From assembly GCA_963822445.1 (NCBI GenBank), contig CAWGHO010000001.1, forward strand, positions 960,001 through 1,024,000: DNA of 64,000 nt, given 5' to 3'. How positions within the stretch are numbered: position 1 is the stretch's first letter; each line of letters starts with the position of its first letter. Source of the stretch: an uncultured Acidobacteriota bacterium. Its GTDB lineage: Bacteria; Acidobacteriota; Thermoanaerobaculia; Gp7-AA8. Below the pieces are notes generated by a model. That model had not been told where the DNA came from, made no database searches, and was given only the letters and a program-made list of their open reading frames with translations. The position numbers and the translations under genes are program-made. Shown one piece after another: positions 35,248 through 42,159 of the stretch.

Positions 35248-35756
35248 GACATTTGCCGGTTCTGCTTCTTCTTCTCGCCGCCTGCGCTTCCACCACTCCC
35301 CCACCCGCACCGCCTCCCGTCCCGGCGTGGGAAGCGGTTCCGGCGGGAATCAGCGGAGCGCTTTGTCAGCGGCTGCAGCTGGACGGCATCGGGACGATCG
35401 GTGCCGAGGTGGGGATGGTGAAGATCACCCAGCCGATCGCGTCGCCGCAGATCCTGGCTTCACTCGGCAAGCCGAAGCGCAGCGTGAACATCGTGCATCG
35501 CGCGCTTCCGATCGCCACGGCGACGACCGGAACCGGATCGTGCGCGTGGAGGCTGATCGACGCACTCGATCCGCAGCGGCACCGCGACGCGATGGTCGTC
35601 GAGCTTTCCTCGCCCGTCCCCAATCCCTCGAAAAACGCCGCCGGCCTGGTCGCCCGCGTCTCCCTCGGCGGCACGCATCCGACCTGGTACTGGATCGAGC
35701 TGATCCCGCGCGGCGAAGGGTGGTCGGTGGGGCGGATTCTGCCGCTGGGGTTTTAG
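35244..35756 (+). CDS. Hypothetical lipoprotein
   Basis: TTGA overlap with the helicase gene; lipobox LAAC followed by a Pro-rich tether. Confidence 0.7.
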   Translation: MRHLPVLLLLLAACASTTPPPAPPPVPAWEAVPAGISGALCQRLQLDGIGTIGAEVGMVKITQPIASPQILASLGKPKRSVNIVHRALPIATATTGTGSCAWRLIDALDPQRHRDAMVVELSSPVPNPSKNAAGLVARVSLGGTHPTWYWIELIPRGEGWSVGRILPLGF

Positions 35757-37555
35757 GCCCAGTTCTCCAACCAGTACTGCAGCATGATCACCGCCCACAG
35801 CGGTTTGGCGTGATTGGCAGTGCCCGCGCGGTGCTCATCCAGTAGTCGCCTGACGTACGCCTCATCGACGAGTCCATGCAGCCGTTCAGGCGCGAGCAAC
35901 CGATCGACTTCCGATCGCAGCCCGCGATTGATCCAGCTCGCCACCGGCACACTCAAACCGCGCTTGCGGCGATAGATGACGTCGCGCGGCAACCACTTCT
36001 CCGCGGCTTTCTTCAGCACCCATTTCGTGGTCAGTCCGCGAACGCGCAGATCGGCTGGCAGCGACAGCGCGTACGCAGTGAGGAAGCGATCGAGATACGG
36101 CGCGCGCGCTTCGACTGACGAAAGCATGGTCGCGCGATCGACTTTCACGAGCAGGTTGTCGCGCAGGTAGCTTCGGTAGTCGAGCAGCATCGCGCCCGTC
36201 AGCGCGTTCTCGCCATGCGCAACGACGTCTGGGAGCGCACGCGCGGGCAGGCCGGTGCCGAACCAGGCCAGATGGCGCTCGATCCAGGGGCGCTCGGCGT
36301 CGGTGACGAACTTCTTCAGCAGATATTCGAGCGTGACCTTCTTCCCCGAGGGCGGAAGCGCGAACGCGAGCTTGCGCAGAGCCGTACGCGCGAAGGACGG
36401 CATGGAGTCGTACAGCGGCGCGACTTTGTGTCCGAGGTACGTCGGGTAGCCGCCGAACAGCTCATCGGCACCTTCGCCGCTGAGGATCACCTTCACATGC
36501 TCGCGAGCGGTGCGGGCCAGCAGGAACGTCGGAAGAATCGCCGGATCGGCGAGCGGTTCGGCGACGCGCCTCGTGACGTGGCGCAGAGCCTCGAGCAGCG
36601 TCTCCTCGTCCGCGCGCACCGGCACGTGGCGCGTGCGCATGTGTCTGGCCAGCTCCGCCGCATCCGCACTCTCGTCATAAGACTCCTCGGCGAACTGCGC
36701 CGAAAACGTGTGCACCTTGTCGACGCCGATCGCCTTCGAGGCGAGCGTGGCCAGGAGCGAGGAATCGAGTCCGCCGCTGATGAAGACGCCGACCGGGACG
36801 TCGGACATGACCTGCTTGGTCACCGCGTCCTCGATGAGCCGCTGCGTCGTGGCGATCGCCTCGCGGGCATCGCGCGGCTCGATCGTGAATCGCTCCGGAT
36901 CCCAGTAACGGATGGTCTCTTCGCCGCCGTCTTTGAAGAGCATCAGCGTTCCCGCCGGAACGCGGCGGATCGCCGCAAACGGGGTGCGCGGCTCGGGGAT
37001 GTAGCCGAGGGTCAGGTATTCGTCGATGGCGACACGATCGAGATCGCGCGAGATTTCGGGATGCCGCAGCAGACATTGCAGCTCCGAGGCGAAGAGCACT
37101 TCGTCGCCGGAGCGCATGTAGAACAGCGGCTTCTCGCCGGCGCGGTCGCGCGCGAGGAGCAGCGTGCGCGTGCGGTTGTCCCAGATCGCCAGCCCGAACA
37201 TGCCGTCGAGCATCTCCACGGCCTTCGGACCCTGATCGAGGTACAGCGGCAGGATCGTCTCGACGTCGGAGTGCGAGCGGTACGGGTAGTCGCGATAGCG
37301 CGCGCGGATCTCGGCGGCGTTGTAAATCTCGCCGTTCGCCTCGAGCCACACCGAACCGTCAGGCGATGCGAACGGCTGGTCGGCGCGCTCGTGCAGGTCG
37401 ATGATCCGCAGCCGCTCCGTACCGATGCGGGCGTTCGGATGCGTGAGCACCGCCCGCCCGTCCGGACCGCGATGACGCAGGGCCTCCCCCATCTCGTCGA
37501 GGACGTGGGGGAAGCGGAGCGCGTTCGCGCCGATCATTCCGTAGATGCCGCACAT
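35753..37555 (-). CDS. asnB: Asparagine synthase (glutamine-hydrolysing) family amidotransferase
   Basis: N-terminal MCGI, HRGPDG, NGEIYN, RDRAGEKPLFY, SGGLDSS and SGEGADELFGGY. Confidence 0.93.
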   Translation of the reverse strand: MCGIYGMIGANALRFPHVLDEMGEALRHRGPDGRAVLTHPNARIGTERLRIIDLHERADQPFASPDGSVWLEANGEIYNAAEIRARYRDYPYRSHSDVETILPLYLDQGPKAVEMLDGMFGLAIWDNRTRTLLLARDRAGEKPLFYMRSGDEVLFASELQCLLRHPEISRDLDRVAIDEYLTLGYIPEPRTPFAAIRRVPAGTLMLFKDGGEETIRYWDPERFTIEPRDAREAIATTQRLIEDAVTKQVMSDVPVGVFISGGLDSSLLATLASKAIGVDKVHTFSAQFAEESYDESADAAELARHMRTRHVPVRADEETLLEALRHVTRRVAEPLADPAILPTFLLARTAREHVKVILSGEGADELFGGYPTYLGHKVAPLYDSMPSFARTALRKLAFALPPSGKKVTLEYLLKKFVTDAERPWIERHLAWFGTGLPARALPDVVAHGENALTGAMLLDYRSYLRDNLLVKVDRATMLSSVEARAPYLDRFLTAYALSLPADLRVRGLTTKWVLKKAAEKWLPRDVIYRRKRGLSVPVASWINRGLRSEVDRLLAPERLHGLVDEAYVRRLLDEHRAGTANHAKPLWAVIMLQYWLENWA

Positions 37556-37579
37556 TGGCGGCGCGCATTGTGCCAGACC

Positions 37580-37699
37580 ACGAGGGGCCTCCGGCGGGCG
37601 GCCCCGGGCCGCCGCGCTGGTTGTGCCTTCTGCCGGGATCGCGCTGGATGCGCGAATCGCGTTCACGCCAACACTAACGCAGCGGCCCGGGGCCGCCCG
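37580..37699. repeat. REP-like inverted repeat pair whose right arm is interrupted by the IS110
   Basis: Left arm ACGAGGGGCCTCCGGCGGGCGGCCCCGGGCCGC (37580-37612). Right arm GCGGCCCGGGGCCGCCCG (37682-37699) continues after the IS as TCCGGAGGCCTCTCGT (39240-39255). Confidence 0.85.
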
Positions 37700-37715
37700 C
37701 CTATAGCTTGTCCGG

Positions 37716-37955
37716 CCGTCTCTCCGCTTCTCCCTCAGCCCTCAGAGAAGTACCCGTTGGGTGGCAATCGGGAGAATCGGGTTCAGGCGGCGCGATACTG
37801 AGAGGAAGGGTTCGTCCCGCTACGAATTCCGCCCGTGTTCGGATCGACGAATCCCTCCGGACTTTCGAGCGGGACGAAGTGCTTTGGCCCGAAACGCATT
37901 CTCAGATGCTGTCGGAGCACGACTCGACTATAGGCCTTGCGCGCGGCCAAAGCCA
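37716..37955 (+). ncRNA. Predicted IS110 bridge RNA (target-binding loop 37811-37878, donor-binding loop 37881-37953)
   Basis: Closing stems TTCGTCCCGCT/AGCGGGACGAA and GCTTTGGCC/GGCCAAAGC. Guides: LTG CCGCCCGT 37829-37836, RTG CCTCCGGAC 37854-37862, LDG CTCAGATGC 37901-37909, RDG CTATAGGC 37928-37935. The 5' and 3' limits are estimates. Confidence 0.85.
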
Positions 37956-37973
37956 ACCCGAAGGGAGGGTGTG

Positions 37974-39218
37974 ATGAGCGAGTTCGAGTTTGGGGCGTTG
38001 GTGGGACTGGATTGGGGTGACACATCGCACGAGGTGGCTCTTTGGGACGAGCAGCAGCAGACGTGCACGAACGAGCGCATCGAGCACACGCCTGCGGCTC
38101 TGCGCGCATGGATCGAAGCGCTGCAGGCGCGCTTCGGCGGGGCACCGATCGCCGTGGCCATCGAGCAGTCCCGCGGCGCGGTCTTCGACGCGCTCAGCGG
38201 CTATCCGTTCGTCACGTTGTATCCGATCAACCCACGCAGTGCAGCCCGGTATCGTGAGGCGTTTCATCCGAGCCTTTCGAAAGACGATCCGACCGACGCG
38301 GCGTCCTTGCTCGACCTGCTCCGTAAGCACCGCAACGAGCTGCGCCCGTTCATCGCCGACGACGCTTCTACGCGGCTGCTGCGGCTTCTGACCGAGGATC
38401 GGCGGGAGCTCGTCGATCAGAGGACGCAACACGTCCAACGCATGACCGATCGGCTCAAGACGTACTACCCGCAGGCGCTCCGGTGGGCCGGCGCGTTGAT
38501 TACGGCCCAGGCCTGTGACTTCCTCGAACGCTGGCCGACGCTCGAGGCCATCCAAAGGGCTCGGCCGTCCGCGATACGGAGGTTCTATGCGGGTCATCAT
38601 CACGCGGCCGCGTGGATCGACCAGAGGCTCGCCGAGATCCGTTCAGAGGTCGCGTTCCACGACGACCAGGTCACCACTGACGCTGCCGTGCTGCTGATCG
38701 GAAGCGAGGTTGCGCAGATCCGGGCCCTCAACACGAGCATCGCCACGTACGACCAGAAGATCTCGGCGGCGTTCGCCGCCCACCAGGACGCGTCGATCTT
38801 CGCGAGCTTCCCTGGCGCCGGCCAACAGCTCGCGCCGCGGCTCGCCGCCGCCTTCGGGACCGATCGCAAGCGCTTCGGCAGCGCCGTCAACGTCGCCACC
38901 CGAAGCGGCATCGCCCCGGTTCTCCGCCGGAGCGGCAAAACGGCGGTCGTGCACATGCGCTGGGCTTGTCCGAAGTTCCTGCGTCAGACGTTCCATGAGT
39001 ACGCGCGAGTCTCGATCGGTCAGTCCGAATGGGCTCGAGCCTTCTACAAGCAGCAACGCGCGCGCGGACACAGCCACCACGAGGCTATCCGCACGCTCGC
39101 TTACCGCTGGATCCGCGTCCTTTACGCCTGCTGGAACAATCGCACCGTCTACGACGAAGCTCTCTATCTGCGGCAGCTCGCCACCCGAGGCTCAACCCTC
39201 GCCACAGCTGCTGCCTGA
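37974..39218 (+). CDS. IS110-family transposase/recombinase (DEDD RuvC-like + Transposase_20 domain), 414 aa
   Basis: GLDW, AIEQ and SKDDPTDA catalytic motifs; FPGAG..LA..L; GIAPVLRRSGK (catalytic Ser region); RBS GGGAGG before GTGATG. Confidence 0.96.
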   Translation: MSEFEFGALVGLDWGDTSHEVALWDEQQQTCTNERIEHTPAALRAWIEALQARFGGAPIAVAIEQSRGAVFDALSGYPFVTLYPINPRSAARYREAFHPSLSKDDPTDAASLLDLLRKHRNELRPFIADDASTRLLRLLTEDRRELVDQRTQHVQRMTDRLKTYYPQALRWAGALITAQACDFLERWPTLEAIQRARPSAIRRFYAGHHHAAAWIDQRLAEIRSEVAFHDDQVTTDAAVLLIGSEVAQIRALNTSIATYDQKISAAFAAHQDASIFASFPGAGQQLAPRLAAAFGTDRKRFGSAVNVATRSGIAPVLRRSGKTAVVHMRWACPKFLRQTFHEYARVSIGQSEWARAFYKQQRARGHSHHEAIRTLAYRWIRVLYACWNNRTVYDEALYLRQLATRGSTLATAAA

Positions 39219-39219
39219 C

Positions 39220-39225
39220 TTGACA
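39220..39225 (+). promoter_or_regulatory. -35 box TTGACA in the IS right end, pairing with a -10 box in the left end (37702-37709) only in the excised circle
   Basis: Circle junction reads TTGACA-ggaaggctcagatgcc-TATAGCTT (16-nt spacer to TATAGC, 18-nt to TAGCTT). Confidence 0.75.
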
Positions 39226-39232
39226 GGAAGGC

Positions 39233-40849
39233 TCAGATGTCCGGAGGCCTCTCGTCGTTCCCGTTCGCGTACGCCACGTGATGGGCGCCGGCAGCGACGT
39301 TCGTCCAACCGCGAGCTTCGAGCAATGCCCGCCGCGGCTTGTCGTTGTTCCGGACGATGTAGACCCGTGGATTGGCTGCGGCGAGCGAGCGCTCGAAGTA
39401 CGGCAGCGGCTTGAGCGGCGACGCGGGATTGGTCGTGAACTTCTCGTAGCGACGCACGAGGTAATTGCTGGTCATCTCGCTCGCGTCTTCGGTCACGACC
39501 ACGATCGGCCTCTGGAGATAAAACGCCATCGATCCGGTGAAGGCCTCGACGCCGATGATCTCCGTGTCCGGACGCACGTGCGGCGCGAGTCTCGCCACGA
39601 ACGAGCGCGTCGAGCGCCGTTCGCCGATCGCCTTCATCAGCGGATTGGTGATCAGCGGCATGAGCAGCACGGGCAACGACAGCGCGATCAGCACCAGCTC
39701 TTTCCGTTTCGCGAAAAGCGCGACCAGACCACCCAGCGCGAAGGCGCCGCCGAGGAAGAGCGCGGTGTCGTCGGCGACCGCGGCGATCTCCGGCTTCATC
39801 TTCGTCCGATGAAACACGAACGGCGCGACGAGCAGGATGCCGCCGAAGATGGCGAACACGATCGCCGCCGCGCGCGTCCGCGCCTCTTCCCAGATGCGCG
39901 CGATCACCAGCGCGATGGCTGGCATCAGCGGCAGGATGTACTGCGGCCGCTTCGACTGCGAGATCGAGAAAAAGACCAGCGGAATGGCGATCCAGAGCGC
40001 GAGAAACAGCAGGTCCCGCCGCTTCAGCGAGCGCCAGCTGAAGATCGCCACGAGCGACCAGGGCATCGCCCCGGCGAGCAGATACGGCAGGAAGTACCAG
40101 GGCGGTCCGGTGCGCTGCAGCTCTTTCGTGGCCATGCGCGTGGCGGTCTCGGTCACCAGCACGTAGTGCAGAAACTCAGGCACGACCTGGGTCACGCCCC
40201 ACAGCCACGGCGCGATAACCGCGGCGAACAAAACGATCCCGAGAATCGGGAAGAGCACGCGCACCGCTCGCTGAATGAGCGCGTACGGAATGACCACGAA
40301 CAGCACCAGCACGAACGTGACCGGGCCCTTGGTAATCATGGCCAGGCCCATCGCCGCCCAGGCCAGAATCGACCATCGCGAGTTACGCTCTTCGATCGCG
40401 AAGTAAAACGCGACCAGCGCGACGGTGCAGAAGAACATCAGCGCGCTGTCGAAGATCACCGTCCGGGCGAAAGCAACGGTCAGCGGCATCGCCAGGAACG
40501 TGATCGCCGCGATGTACGGCGCGTCTCCACCCCACACGCGCCGCGCGAACCAGAAAATCACCGCACCTGTGGCAATCGTGAAGAGGTACGCCGGCAACCG
40601 CGCCGCGACTTCCGTAGGTCCGAGGACCTCCATCGCCGCGGCTTCGGCCGCGAAATAGACCACGGGCTTATCGAGATACGGCAGCCCGTTGAGACGCGGC
40701 ATGACGTAGTCGTTCGTCTCCGCCATCTCCCGCGCCACTTCCGCGTTGCGGCCTTCATCGGCGTCGAGAAGCGGAAAGCCGCCGAGGTGAATCGCGAGGG
40801 CGATCACCGCGGCGGCTGTCCAGAATTTGAGGAGAGGTGAAGCGGTCAA
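39233..40849 (-). CDS. ArnT/PMT-like (GT39/GT83) membrane glycosyltransferase
   Basis: DADEGRNAEVAREM...PRLNGLPYLDKPV, ARLP, LAMITKGP, PPWYF and SKRPQYILP. TTG start overlaps the upstream stop; the stop codon lies inside the IS right end. Confidence 0.9.
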   Translation of the reverse strand: MTASPLLKFWTAAAVIALAIHLGGFPLLDADEGRNAEVAREMAETNDYVMPRLNGLPYLDKPVVYFAAEAAAMEVLGPTEVAARLPAYLFTIATGAVIFWFARRVWGGDAPYIAAITFLAMPLTVAFARTVIFDSALMFFCTVALVAFYFAIEERNSRWSILAWAAMGLAMITKGPVTFVLVLFVVIPYALIQRAVRVLFPILGIVLFAAVIAPWLWGVTQVVPEFLHYVLVTETATRMATKELQRTGPPWYFLPYLLAGAMPWSLVAIFSWRSLKRRDLLFLALWIAIPLVFFSISQSKRPQYILPLMPAIALVIARIWEEARTRAAAIVFAIFGGILLVAPFVFHRTKMKPEIAAVADDTALFLGGAFALGGLVALFAKRKELVLIALSLPVLLMPLITNPLMKAIGERRSTRSFVARLAPHVRPDTEIIGVEAFTGSMAFYLQRPIVVVTEDASEMTSNYLVRRYEKFTTNPASPLKPLPYFERSLAAANPRVYIVRNNDKPRRALLEARGWTNVAAGAHHVAYANGNDERPPDI

Positions 40850-42159
40850 ACAGCGTTCGAGGTTAGCACGCGGGCCTCGTTCAGGCAGCGATCGAAGATC
40901 TCCACGGCGCTGTCGATCTGCGCCTCGCTGTGCGAAGCCATGACCTGGAACCGGAAGCGCGCCCGCTCGCGCGGAACCGCAGGAAACTCGACGAGGTTCG
41001 CGATCAGGCCGTTCTCTTCGAGCAATCGCGACGTCCACTTGGCCACGGTCTCGTCGCCGCACATCACCGGAACGACGTTGCTGGGATTGCCGAGGCACTC
41101 GATACCGCGCGACTCGTAGCCCACGCGAAGGCGCAGGATGTTGTCGAACGCGCGCGTCCGCAGCTCATCGCCTTCCTCGCTGCGCACGATCCGCAATGCC
41201 TCCAGCGCCACCGCCGACTGCACCGGGGAGATGCCGTTCGAGTACATGTGCGAGCCGCCGTAGATGCCGAGGAACTGGCGCACCGATTTCTCGTTCGTGG
41301 CCACGAAACCGCCGTTGCTCGAAAACGTCTTCGAGAAACTGCCCATCACCAGATCGACTTTCCCGAGCATCTTCTGGATGCCGATCTGCCCCGTGCCGCC
41401 GGGACCGGTCGCGCCGAAGTCGTGGGCGACGTCCATCATCAGCACCGCGCCGAATTCATGCGCGACCTGCTGCAGACGCTCGATGTCGGGGCTGTCCGAG
41501 TCCATCGAGAAAAGGCCTTCCGACACGACCAGGATCGCGTTCTCCGTGTCTTTCTCGCGGATCTTCGACAGCCGATGCCGCAAGGCGTCGGCGTCGTTGT
41601 GCCGGAACATCCAGACGTTCTGCGTGGCCGCGCGTGCGCCCTGCAGAAGACAGGCGTGGGAGAGCTGATCGATCACGATCGTGTCCTGCGGCCGCACCAG
41701 GCCGGTGATCAGTCCGAAGCCGGCCGCCCATCCCGTCGGAAACAGGAGCACATGTTCCATCTGCAGCATGTCGCCCAGGGCACGCTCGAGCGCGCGGCCG
41801 GGAATGGTGTTGCCCTGCAGCATCGGCGAGGCCGCGGCATGCGGGCCGTACTGGCGGAGCGCGGAGATCGCGGCCGAAGTGATGTCGGGATGCGCGGAGA
41901 GGCCGAGGTAGTCCTGCGAACCGAAATTCAATCCAGTCACGCGGCGGCTGTTCTGGCTCGACAGCTCCGTGGTCGTGCCCGGCTTCGCATGCAGCGTGCG
42001 CGCATACGGCCAGGTGTTCAGCTCGGCGCGAAGGTCGAGCCACTCGCCCAGCGGACGCGTCCGATTGAGCAGGTGCGATCCTTTCGGACTCGCGAACAGA
42101 CCAAGGTGTTTGGTGAACGCCGGTGATTCGATCGAAGACACGTCGGGCAGAGAAGTCAA
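40846..42159 (-). CDS. Alpha-oxoamine synthase family PLP enzyme (BioF/KBL/serine palmitoyltransferase-like)
   Basis: NFGSQDYLGL, DQLSHACL, FRHND, EGLFSMDSD, DVAHDFG and GSFSKTF (PLP Lys). Confidence 0.88.
   Translation of the reverse strand: MTSLPDVSSIESPAFTKHLGLFASPKGSHLLNRTRPLGEWLDLRAELNTWPYARTLHAKPGTTTELSSQNSRRVTGLNFGSQDYLGLSAHPDITSAAISALRQYGPHAAASPMLQGNTIPGRALERALGDMLQMEHVLLFPTGWAAGFGLITGLVRPQDTIVIDQLSHACLLQGARAATQNVWMFRHNDADALRHRLSKIREKDTENAILVVSEGLFSMDSDSPDIERLQQVAHEFGAVLMMDVAHDFGATGPGGTGQIGIQKMLGKVDLVMGSFSKTFSSNGGFVATNEKSVRQFLGIYGGSHMYSNGISPVQSAVALEALRIVRSEEGDELRTRAFDNILRLRVGYESRGIECLGNPSNVVPVMCGDETVAKWTSRLLEENGLIANLVEFPAVPRERARFRFQVMASHSEAQIDSAVEIFDRCLNEARVLTSNAV

What the first reader, a model, noticed from the sequence alone, without database searches (positions are those of the whole stretch)
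37716..37955. IS110 non-coding end encodes a readable bridge RNA with all four guides matching this insertion's target and donor
Seen: two stem-loops upstream of the transposase, each with an internal loop on either side of a small inner hairpin. Loop 1 (37811-37878) carries CCGCCCGT (37829-37836), identical to the left flank plus core of the empty site, and CCTCCGGAC (37854-37862), the reverse complement of GTCCGGAGG at the right junction (39239-39247). Loop 2 (37881-37953) carries CTCAGATGC (37901-37909), which is the right end of the element joined to the first base of the left end, and CTATAGGC (37928-37935), the reverse complement of GCCTATAG at the left junction (37699-37706). Two guides (CCGCCCGT, CTCAGATGC) match fully only the empty target or the circle, not the inserted form. 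Known: IS110 recombinases such as IS621 use a bispecific bridge RNA with LTG/RTG and LDG/RDG guides. Inference: this is an intact RNA-guided recombinase with target CCGCCC-GT-CCGGAGG and donor CTCAGAT-GC-CTATAG, and probably an uncharacterised ortholog.
Basis: partly seen in the sequence, partly recalled or inferred. Interest (0 to 1): 0.92.

Follow-up and report, generated by a model that had tools for sequence, protein, structure and literature searches.

The report
IS110 element with readable bridge RNA

Summary
The element is a 1,541-bp IS110-group insertion sequence (37702-39240 plus one CC). It has a 414-aa DEDD/Ser recombinase and a left-end RNA with a 5' hairpin, a target-binding loop and a donor-binding loop.

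The genome holds 9 full copies plus fragments, all in one REP-like site. A covariance model finds the same RNA upstream of 59 of 72 related recombinase genes. Its stems covary and its guides track each element's own flanks.

- The empty site is GCCCG-CC-GGAGG: 41 copies here and 1,222 in 31 genus genomes.
- The proposed T-containing site has 0 and 5 copies.
- The core is therefore CC, and the T is the last base of the element.

The 9- and 8-nt junction matches are right guides plus handshake guides, as described for IS621. The two left guides match one base less than claimed.

Verdict: a real bridge-RNA recombinase, probably active. It is a new member of a known kind, with an unusual CC core. 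No RNA or activity data exist.

The parts
37587..37599 (-). Intact, unoccupied sister target site (GCCCGCCGGAGGC read on the minus strand) in the other arm of the same ~130-bp palindromic REP-like unit
   Evidence: row C1 - 997599, which is window 37599
37691..37699 (+). Left target flank (LT) GGCCGCCCG. Its last 7 nt equal the LTG. It overlaps the 3' arm of a GC-rich hairpin (37682-37696).
37700..37701 (+). Left copy of the CC core, the 2-bp overlap shared by target and element
   Evidence: left junction GCCCG-CC-TATAG, right junction GATGT-CC-GGAGG, empty site GCCCG-CC-GGAGG
37702..39240 (+). Body of the insertion sequence (1,539 bp; 1,541 with one core copy). Left non-coding end 272 nt, right non-coding end 22 nt.
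   Evidence: 9 full copies at 96-100% identity plus fragments in the same genome; identical ends
37702..37707 (+). TATAGC: the right donor arm and, in the circular form, the -10 box of the reconstituted promoter
   Evidence: the same arrangement can be read in the L018, L037, L055 and L054 families
37715..37791 (+). 5' stem-loop of the predicted bridge RNA. Its sequence and length vary among relatives.
   Evidence: fold; up to 10 substitutions here in diverged copies; distance from left end to TBL is 50-202 nt in relatives
37811..37878 (+). Target-binding loop (TBL): outer stem 37811-21/37868-78, CGAA/UUCG stem 37823-26/37864-67, inner hairpin 37837-52
   Evidence: helix 1: 96.9% of cells paired, 14 of 15 pairs with changes on both sides
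37829..37836 (+). Left target guide (LTG) CCGCCCG plus U. The 7 nt equal LT. The U lies opposite the first core C (a possible U-G wobble with the bottom strand); close relatives L015 and L016 have C here.
37854..37860 (+). Right target guide (RTG) CCUCCGG, the reverse complement of core CC plus right target GGAGG
   Evidence: own mean match 7.74 vs cross 3.31
37861..37862 (+). TBL handshake guide AC, complementary to donor positions 6-7 (GT, 39239-39240)
   Evidence: position 7 paired in 12 of 14 elements, position 6 in 10 of 14; concept from PMC11208158
37881..37953 (+). Donor-binding loop (DBL): outer stem 37881-91/37942-53, CGCA/UGCG stem 37895-98/37938-41, inner hairpin 37911-28
   Evidence: helix 3: 11 of 11 pairs with changes on both sides
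37901..37908 (+). Left donor guide (LDG) CUCAGAUG, equal to the right end CTCAGATG (39232-39239). The next bases CU lie opposite T and C.
37928..37934 (+). Right donor guide (RDG) CUAUAGG, the reverse complement of core CC plus TATAG
37935..37936 (+). DBL handshake guide CC. The first C pairs with target position 7 (G, 37699). The second does not pair with position 6.
   Evidence: position 7 paired in 14 of 22 elements
37963..37969 (+). Shine-Dalgarno-like GGGAGGG, ending 4 nt upstream of the ATG
   Evidence: read from sequence
37974..39218 (+). Recombinase gene, 414 aa: DEDD RuvC-like domain (10-166) and Tnp domain (274-359); D13, E64, D105, D108, S320
39220..39225 (+). TTGACA: the -35 box, which lies 17 nt from TATAGC only when right and left ends are joined
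39232..39240 (+). Left donor arm (LD) CTCAGATGT, the last bases of the element including the disputed T
39241..39242 (+). Right copy of the CC core
39243..39249 (+). Right target flank (RT) GGAGGCC

Best explanation
Window 37702-39240 is an intact, probably active IS110-group insertion sequence that moves by bridge-RNA-guided recombination, as described for IS621.

Proposed cycle (inferred):
- Excision joins the right end to the left end. This places TTGACA (39220-25) 17 nt from TATAGC (37702-07) and creates a promoter.
- The promoter would drive a ~240-nt RNA (~37714-37955) made of a 5' hairpin, a target-binding loop and a donor-binding loop.
[quoted passage not shown] - The 414-aa DEDD/Ser recombinase exchanges strands at the shared CC core.
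- After top-strand exchange, the dinucleotide AC (37861-62) and the C at 37935 pair with the incoming strand as handshake guides.
- The natural target is GCCCG-CC-GGAGG in the arms of a REP-like palindrome.

Shown here: the anatomy, the multiple identical copies, the empty sites, the covariation of stems and guides, and the protein family and fold. Inferred: RNA expression, circle formation and catalysis.
For: - Protein family: Pfam DEDD_Tnp_IS110 (1.6e-28) and Transposase_20 (1.3e-11). NCBIfam NF033542 'IS110 family RNA-guided transposase' scores 143.2 bits against a cut-off of 140.
- Catalytic residues: D13, E64, D105, D108 and S320 are invariant in 13 of 13 aligned relatives at 40-89% identity.
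- Fold: AlphaFold model pLDDT 87.3. The best PDB folds are the ISCro4 and IS621 bridge recombinase complexes (E ~1e-12, TM 0.73-0.76 on the target).
- Copies: 9 full copies plus fragments in the genome. All lie in the same site, with identical ends in 10 of 10 left and 12 of 12 right junctions.
- Selection on the RNA: TBL and DBL loops, guides and inner hairpins are invariant in 10 copies (one substitution in one copy, in the DBL outer stem). The 5' region carries up to 10 substitutions.
- Empty site: GCCCGCCGGAGG occurs 41 times here and 1,222 times in 28 of 31 genus genomes.
- RNA conservation: model R1 finds the RNA at full length, on the plus strand, just upstream of the recombinase gene in 59 of 72 related loci at E<=0.005.
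- Stem covariation: 90.4% of cells are paired, against 32-40% when partners are slid. 32 of 40 pairs change on both sides.
- Guide covariation: RTG plus handshake guide matches its own right junction with mean 7.74 nt, against 3.31 for other elements' junctions (1 of 328 cross pairs reaches 7). The LTG side gives 6.23 against 2.94.
- Close pairs differ in LTG together with their flank (L026 vs L029; L065 vs L056).
- Natural specificity control: 77 sites of another repeat share CC-GGAGGCC but have a different left side. None is occupied.
- Promoter geometry: TTGACA, 17 nt, TATAGC.
Against: - No RNA data exist. No listed sequencing run is on record as RNA, and the contigs laid showed no circle or excision joint.
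- The -10 box is TATAGC, not TATAGT as in relatives, so the promoter may be weak. The scan tool found no plus-strand promoter in the integrated copy.
- The left guides are imperfect. LTG position 8 is U opposite core C. LDG positions 7-8 read CU opposite TC. In 7 of 10 left junctions the LTG also has one mismatch at position 2.
- Sequence similarity to IS621 is weak: phmmer E 3e-4, Tnp domain only. The NCBIfam score is barely above its cut-off.
- The alignment used for pair counts was fitted to the model's structure, which favours that structure.
- Rfam gave no family hit.
Confidence: 0.9

Rival explanations
1. The element is a genuine IS110 with a bridge RNA, but this lineage is no longer mobile. 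The copies would be relics, and the left-guide mismatches (U at LTG position 8, CU at LDG positions 7-8) and the weak -10 box would have disabled it.
For: Mismatches at LTG position 8 and LDG positions 7-8. The -10 box is TATAGC rather than TATAGT. Two rearranged or partial copies exist. No circle or excision joint was seen in contigs.
Against: Nine full copies are 96-100% identical, 4 of them at 100% rounded identity to the query. The ORF is intact with all catalytic residues. TBL and DBL loops, guides and inner hairpins are invariant across copies while the 5' region drifts, which fits selection on the RNA. The same CU/CUG pattern after the LDG is present in the multi-copy L055 family. IS621 itself tolerates non-canonical guide pairs (PMC11208158, passages read).
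Confidence: 0.06
2. One reading: target CCGCCC-GT-CCGGAGG and donor CTCAGAT-GC-CTATAG, with unequal cores. All four guides would match perfectly, and the element would insert only into rare T-containing repeat variants.
For: With that boundary all four strings match end to end. Unequal cores at the two junctions (CT left, GT right) do seem to occur in gammaproteobacterial relatives.
Against: The T-containing site occurs 0 times in this genome and 5 times in 31 genus genomes, which is control level. The T-less site occurs 41 and 1,222 times. A T would be a bulge in an otherwise perfect palindrome (L006 flanks). The relative L018 family has the same right end CAGATGT-CC next to an unrelated flank, ATGCC, so the T travels with the element. 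Relatives L015 and L016 have C, not U, at LTG position 8.
Confidence: 0.02
3. The stem-loops are not a guide RNA. They would be a 5' UTR or regulatory structure, or protein-binding terminal DNA. The matches to the flanks would come from captured repeat sequence, since the target is itself palindromic.
For: The target repeat is GC-rich and palindromic, so CCUCCGG also occurs in the other repeat arm. Rfam gives no hit. No RNA evidence exists.
Against: The LTG and RTG are separated by a 16-nt hairpin (17 nt from the last LTG base to the first RTG base) and are not a contiguous repeat copy. Relatives with unrelated, non-palindromic targets (CT-ACGTT, CT-GCCAG, CC-ATGCC, CT-CTATT, AT-TGTTA) show the same positional complementarity. 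The stems covary as an RNA.
Confidence: 0.02

Closest known systems
IS621 (E. coli) bridge recombinase and bridge RNA (Durrant et al. 2024, PMC11208160; Hiraizumi et al. 2024, PMC11208158; passages read)
   Same: - Recombinase with DEDD RuvC-like domain plus Ser-bearing Tnp domain, and the same fold.
- RNA encoded in a long left end, with a 5' hairpin, target loop and donor loop.
- Left guides read the bottom strand and right guides the top strand.
- 2-nt handshake guides lie 3' of the RTG and RDG.
- A 2-bp core is shared by target and donor.
[quoted passage not shown]
- The target lies in a REP-like repeat.
   Different: - Only 17-19% identity in the structural alignment, and a weak sequence match.
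- 414 aa against chains of 328 aa.
- The core is CC. For IS621 and its relatives the second core base T is described as 'almost invariant'.
- The RTG is 7 nt (core plus 5) rather than the 4 paired in the IS621 structure.
- The LTG ends at core position 8 with a U.
- The LDG pairs only up to donor position 6.
ISCro4 bridge recombinase (PDB 9t56; seen only as a PDB entry title)
   Same: It is the best structural and sequence match among solved structures (Foldseek E 2.4e-12; phmmer E 1.8e-05).
   Different: 19% identity. Nothing else was compared.
ISPpu10 and ISPpu9 of Pseudomonas putida (abstract of bioRxiv 10.64898/2026.03.19.712850 read; PMC12288879 seen only as the truncated abstract start in the search listing)
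   Same: These are IS110 elements that insert into repeated intergenic or REP sequences. For ISPpu10, a GC-rich stem-loop 5' of the target adds specificity. Here every target also has a GC-rich hairpin directly 5' of, and overlapping, the left target. The hairpin is kept by compensatory changes among sites.
   Different: A role for the hairpin here is only an inference. No sequence comparison with ISPpu9 or ISPpu10 was made.
IS1111-group elements and seekRNA (the IS1111 group is described in PMC11208160; the term seekRNA was seen only in a review abstract listed)
   Same: Same protein family and the same RNA-guided logic.
   Different: In the IS1111 group the RNA lies in a long right end, with long subterminal inverted repeats. 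Here the left end is 272 nt and the right end 22 nt, and the RNA is in the left end.

Membership tests
IS110 family, IS110 group (bridge-RNA recombinases) | Recombinase with an N-terminal DEDD (RuvC-like) domain and a C-terminal Tnp domain carrying the catalytic Ser | tested here: met
   Pfam PF01548 and PF02371. NF033542 at 143.2 bits against a cut-off of 140. D13, E64, D105, D108 and S320 are invariant in 13 of 13. Top folds are the ISCro4 and IS621 complexes. The equivalence to IS621 D11/E60/D102/D105/S241 rests on motif and spacing, not on a residue-level superposition.
IS110 family, IS110 group (bridge-RNA recombinases) | Long left non-coding end and short right end; no long subterminal inverted repeats | tested here: met
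   Left end 37702-37973 is 272 nt and right end 39219-39240 is 22 nt. Repeats were not searched separately.
IS110 family, IS110 group (bridge-RNA recombinases) | [quoted passage not shown] | tested here: met
   Folds. Model R1 hits 59 of 72 related loci. 90.4% of cells are paired, and 32 of 40 pairs have changes on both sides.
IS110 family, IS110 group (bridge-RNA recombinases) | [quoted passage not shown] | tested here: met
   In the window the LTG matches 7 of 7 and the RTG 7 of 7. Own-versus-cross comparison across 19 and 22 non-redundant elements.
IS110 family, IS110 group (bridge-RNA recombinases) | Second loop complementary to the joined element ends (left donor bottom strand, right donor top strand) | tested here: met
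   The RDG matches CC-TATAG 7 of 7. The LDG matches CTCAGATG (8 nt) and then mismatches at donor position 7 and the core. The CTCAG and TATAG parts are conserved across the family, so covariation there is limited.
IS110 family, IS110 group (bridge-RNA recombinases) | Handshake guides 3' of the RTG and RDG that pair with position 7 (and 6) of the other DNA | tested here: met
   In the window, AC pairs with donor GT, and C pairs with target G7. Across the family, TBL position 7 pairs in 12 of 14 and DBL position 7 in 14 of 22.
IS110 family, IS110 group (bridge-RNA recombinases) | Shared core dinucleotide, seen as a 2-bp duplication; CT in IS621 and most relatives | tested here: met
   A shared 2-bp core is present but it is CC, not CT. 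Relatives show CC, CT, AT, GT, TT and AA at that place. The single-copy junctions among them were located using the RDG itself.
IS110 family, IS110 group (bridge-RNA recombinases) | [quoted passage not shown] | tested here: met
   TTGACA, 17 nt, TATAGC, read from the two ends. The same geometry can be read in four relative families. Function was not tested.
IS110 family, IS110 group (bridge-RNA recombinases) | RNA is made, binds the recombinase and is required for recombination | not testable with these tools
   No RNA run is listed. Only short contigs could be laid.
Rfam RNA families | Match to a curated covariance model | tested here: not met
   9 matches at E<=10, all far below their gathering scores and none to a bridge-RNA-like family. 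Whether Rfam 15 holds such a family was not established.

The most novel reading that the evidence does not exclude
This acidobacterial clade (the window element, its Thermoanaerobaculia relatives and the Vicinamibacterales families) uses a CC core. That would relax the second-position T described as almost invariant and backbone-read in IS621. It combines this with left guides that stop short of the core, and with a target-side GC hairpin that acts as a second, structural specificity check. If so, it would be a naturally different core and target-recognition solution among bridge recombinases.
Probability: 0.3. Interest if true: 0.5.

Novelty: new member of a known kind. Interest (0 to 1): 0.36.

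Why it matters
Bridge recombinases are being developed as programmable tools for DNA insertion, inversion and excision.

This element is a distant orthologue, 17-19% identical to the solved ones. All parts of its code can be read directly from one genome:
- 12 occupied and 41 empty natural targets;
- 77 natural near-targets that are never used;
- ten identical copies of the RNA.

It gives a clean natural example of handshake guides. It uses a CC core where T is usually fixed. It shows how a one-base error in an element boundary changes the inferred target and donor.

For the host it is an ordinary, moderately expanded insertion sequence that lands in intergenic repeats.

Tried and rejected
- **Rfam scan** of 37400-39500 at E<=10: only sub-threshold miRNA and sRNA matches, which reflect the repeat hairpin.
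- **Sequencing runs**: no RNA holder listed, and the best DNA holder has 0.26 of the sampled words.
- **Laying contigs** of X1-X4: short pieces only, with no joints, so nothing can be said about the circle, the empty site or expression.
- **Orthologous empty site**: in same-genus relatives L090, L093 and L094 the asparagine-synthase-like and glycosyltransferase-like genes abut, with neither repeat nor IS. This shows that repeat plus IS are insertions here, but it does not test the T question. That was settled by motif counts.
- **phmmer against PDB sequences**: only a weak match to the Tnp domain. The fold search was needed.
- **Alternative LTG register** (CCGCC aligned to CCG plus core CC): rejected, because it gives 5 matches and no equivalent in the donor loop.
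- **Reading the CU after the LDG as a guide with a bulged donor T**: cannot be decided. Across relatives, donor position 7 is often unmatched.
- **Literature search** for 'CC core' together with bridge RNA terms: no paper in the held library has the phrase. This is a term search only. The supplementary files of the papers, which may list core usage for thousands of elements, were not opened, so I do not claim that the CC core is unreported.

Full report
**Observation**

Folding 37700-37974 and 37714-37956 gives three elements: a 5' hairpin (37715-37791), a first stem-loop (37811-37878) and a second stem-loop (37881-37953). Each of the last two has a large internal loop around a small inner hairpin. 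The fold energy alone is only mildly unusual (z -1.9 and -2.3), so the case rests on comparison, not on energy.

Downstream lies a 414-aa ORF (37974-39218). It is preceded by GGGAGGG, which ends 4 nt upstream of the ATG.

**The protein**

- Pfam finds DEDD_Tnp_IS110 (residues 10-166, 1.6e-28) and Transposase_20 (274-359, 1.3e-11).
- NCBIfam finds NF033542, 'IS110 family RNA-guided transposase', at 143.2 bits against a cut-off of 140.
- In an alignment with 12 relatives at 40-89% identity, D13, E64, D105, D108 and S320 are invariant. They sit in motifs with the same D-x2-D spacing as the IS621 catalytic residues named in PMC11208158.
- An AlphaFold model (pLDDT 87.3) has the ISCro4 and IS621 synaptic-complex chains as its ten best PDB matches (E ~1e-12, TM 0.73-0.76 on the target, 17-19% identity). 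Next come TIGR-Tas and Nop5-type proteins.
- By sequence alone the PDB match is weak: 1.8e-05 and 3e-04, Tnp domain only.

**Copies, ends and the true target**

The genome (6.0 Mb, 3 contigs) holds 9 full copies at 96-100% identity plus fragments. Ten left ends and twelve right ends are identical at the junctions. The left junction reads ...GGCC(G)GCCCG|CCTATAG and the right junction reads CTCAGATG|TCCGGAGGCC.

That string occurs 0 times in the genome, whereas GCCCGCCGGAGG occurs 41 times. In 31 genomes of the genus the T form occurs 5 times, against 6 hits for the reversed-pattern control. The T-less form occurs 1,222 times in 28 genomes. 51 of those hits are in the unpublished genomes G002 and G033.

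The 41 sites lie in pairs about 100 bp apart, in inverted orientation, at the two ends of a ~130-bp palindromic repeat unit. The window's element sits in one arm of such a unit. The other arm (37587-37599, minus strand) still has the intact site. At one copy (L006) the two arms are perfect complements only if the T is removed. The L018 family of relatives has the same right end, CAGATGT-CC, next to an unrelated flank.

The conclusions are:
- The T is the last base of the element.
- The overlap shared by target and element is CC.
- The target is GCCCG-CC-GGAGG.
- The donor junction is CAGATGT-CC-TATAG.
- The element body is 37702-39240.

**Re-reading the four guides**

The passages of PMC11208158 read state three things about IS621:
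- The left guides pair with the bottom strand and the right guides with the top strand.
- The core is included in the pairing.
- The two bases 3' of the RTG and of the RDG are 'handshake guides'. After top-strand exchange they pair with positions 6-7 of the other DNA.

Applied here:

| Feature | Coordinates | Sequence | Pairs with |
|---|---|---|---|
| RTG | 37854-60 | CCUCCGG | CC-GGAGG, 7 of 7 |
| TBL handshake guide | 37861-62 | AC | donor GT |
| RDG | 37928-34 | CUAUAGG | CC-TATAG, 7 of 7 |
| DBL handshake guide | 37935 | C | target G7 |

Those junctions are the post-exchange top strands.

- The LTG is CCGCCCG (7 of 7 for this copy), followed by U opposite core C. Relatives L015 and L016 have C there, so U is a variant that could wobble-pair.
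- The LDG is CUCAGAUG (8 nt), followed by CU opposite TC.
- In 7 of 10 left junctions the left flank is CGGCCCG, one mismatch to the LTG at position 2.
- Unoccupied sites are 32 of the CCGGCCCG type and 8 of the GCCGCCCG type, so no preference is evident.

Shuffling each loop 100,000 times reached the observed match length in 599, 36, 32 and 29 cases.

**Comparative evidence**

The recombinase has 72 related loci in the species-representative genome collection. The closest are in Thermoanaerobaculia assemblies (83-89% identity), followed by Vicinamibacterales (about 52%). Further relatives occur in Planctomycetota, Acidimicrobiia, Gammaproteobacteria and others (35-50%).

A covariance model built from the window, L015 and L016 finds a full-length match on the coding strand, directly upstream of the gene, in 59 of 72 loci at E<=0.005. 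It hits only the ten copies of this element in the own genome.

On 35 distinct sequences, 90.4% of cells are paired, against 32-40% with slid partners. 32 of 40 pairs show changes on both sides, and 0 of 500 shuffles reach the observed covariation score. The caveat is that this alignment was fitted to the model.

Ends of relatives were fixed in two ways. One was comparison of copies in multi-copy genomes. The other was the TTGAC/CTCAG and core-TATAG landmarks.

RTGs track very different right flanks:

| Core + right flank | RTG |
|---|---|
| CT-ACGTT | AACGUAG |
| CT-GCCAG | CUGGCAG |
| CC-ATGCC | GGCAUGG |
| CT-CTATT | AAUAGAG |
| CT-CTCCC | GGGAGAG |
| AT-TGTTA | UAACAAU |

Own-versus-cross longest matches are as follows:
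- RTG plus handshake guide: 7.74 against 3.31 (19 elements; 1 of 328 cross pairs reaches 7).
- LTG side: 6.23 against 2.94 (22 elements; 6 of 462 cross pairs reach 7).
- The TBL handshake base pairs with donor position 7 in 12 of 14 elements.
- The DBL handshake base pairs with target position 7 in 14 of 22 elements.

For single-copy loci the left junction was located with the RDG itself, so RDG agreement there is circular. The LTG and handshake tests are not.

The donor loop is conserved across the family (CUCAG... and ...CUAUA), as are the ends. This matches the statement in PMC11208160 that the second loop is the more conserved one.

**Promoter**

TTGACA (39220-25) is followed by exactly 17 nt (GGAAGGCTCAGATGTCC) to the end of the core. 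In a right-end/left-end joint the next bases are TATAGC (37702-07).

The same -35/17/-10 geometry can be read in the L018, L037, L055 and L054 families, which have TATAGT. This explains why TATAG and TTGAC are conserved. It parallels the reconstituted promoter of IS621.

The integrated copy has no plus-strand promoter-like site by the scan. That scan would also not accept TATAGC.

**Specificity in nature**

A second repeat family ([AG]AGG[TC]AGG-CCGGAGGC, 77 copies) shares the core and right target but not the left target. It is never occupied. By contrast, 12 of the 53 sites with the GCCCG left side carry a right end. This is what a requirement for both the LTG and the RTG predicts.

Every target also has a GC-rich hairpin directly 5' of the site and overlapping the left target. 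The arm pairs are GCGGCC/GGCCGC, GCCGGCC/GGCCGGC, GGCGGGC/GCCCGCC and GCCGGT/ACCGGC. This recalls the target stem-loop reported for ISPpu10 (abstract). A role for it here is only an inference.

**What it is and how new**

All testable defining features of an IS110-group bridge-RNA element are met.

It departs from IS621 in these ways:
- The core is CC. The second core base T is called almost invariant.
- The RTG is 7 nt.
- The left guides stop at or before the core.
- The protein is longer and very divergent.

Thousands of such RNAs have been predicted computationally. I therefore rate it a new member of a known kind. I could not check whether CC cores are tabulated in the closed supplements. 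The only search found no paper with the phrase 'CC core'.

**Limits**

- No RNA, circle or activity evidence exists.
- Organism names come from the record titles of relatives, not from the window's own genome.

Noticed in passing
window 37580-37699 plus 39241-39270; genome-wide list: A ~130-bp palindromic REP/MITE-like unit with the target site in both arms, in pairs about 100 bp apart. There are 41 unoccupied sites in this genome and 1,222 in 28 of 31 genomes of the genus, ranging from 0 to 297 per genome.
   Followed up: partly
genome G000, e.g. C1:145548, C1:149692, C1:988491 (the last is window ~28491): A second repeat family with 77 hits ([AG]AGG[TC]AGGCCGGAGGC inside GTGTAGTGTGGGCCTCCGGCCTACC...), which shares the core and right target of the IS but is never occupied.
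   Followed up: partly
G000:C3:469299-470839 (loci L010, L012, L014): One copy of the element has an internal 161-bp segment (element positions 417-577, inside the recombinase gene) inverted in place, with 3-bp overlaps at both breakpoints. Whether this is a real rearrangement or an assembly artefact was not examined.
   Followed up: no
G000:C1:940359-941429 (loci L011, L013): Two partial right-end halves (element positions 849-1541 and 1163-1541) are joined head to head. Both face outward into repeat flanks, and no left end is present.
   Followed up: no
L043, L065, L056, L070, L081 (Gammaproteobacteria): In these relatives the left junction reads ...CT-TATAG but the right junction reads ...GGGCGT-GT-TGTTA, while the RTG and RDG both expect CT. 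The two junctions therefore seem to carry different first core bases.
   Followed up: no
L027 and L025 versus L029, L026, L018 (left-end to TBL distance 187-202 vs 50-57 nt; alignment): Some Vicinamibacterales copies carry an extra ~135 nt between the left end and the target-binding loop, so the 5' part of the RNA is highly variable.
   Followed up: no
window 35753-37666 (-) and 39233-41098 (-); L090, L093, L094: The IS and its repeat lie between an asparagine-synthase-like gene and a membrane glycosyltransferase-like gene (labels are from reading the translations, not from a search). In three same-genus relatives these genes abut with about 20 bp between them and no repeat.
   Followed up: partly
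L017 (contig start): This relative has RTG CCCCCGG and handshake AU, while its own right junction is GT-CC-GGAGG. The guide does not match its present site at two positions. The copy is cut by the contig end.
   Followed up: no
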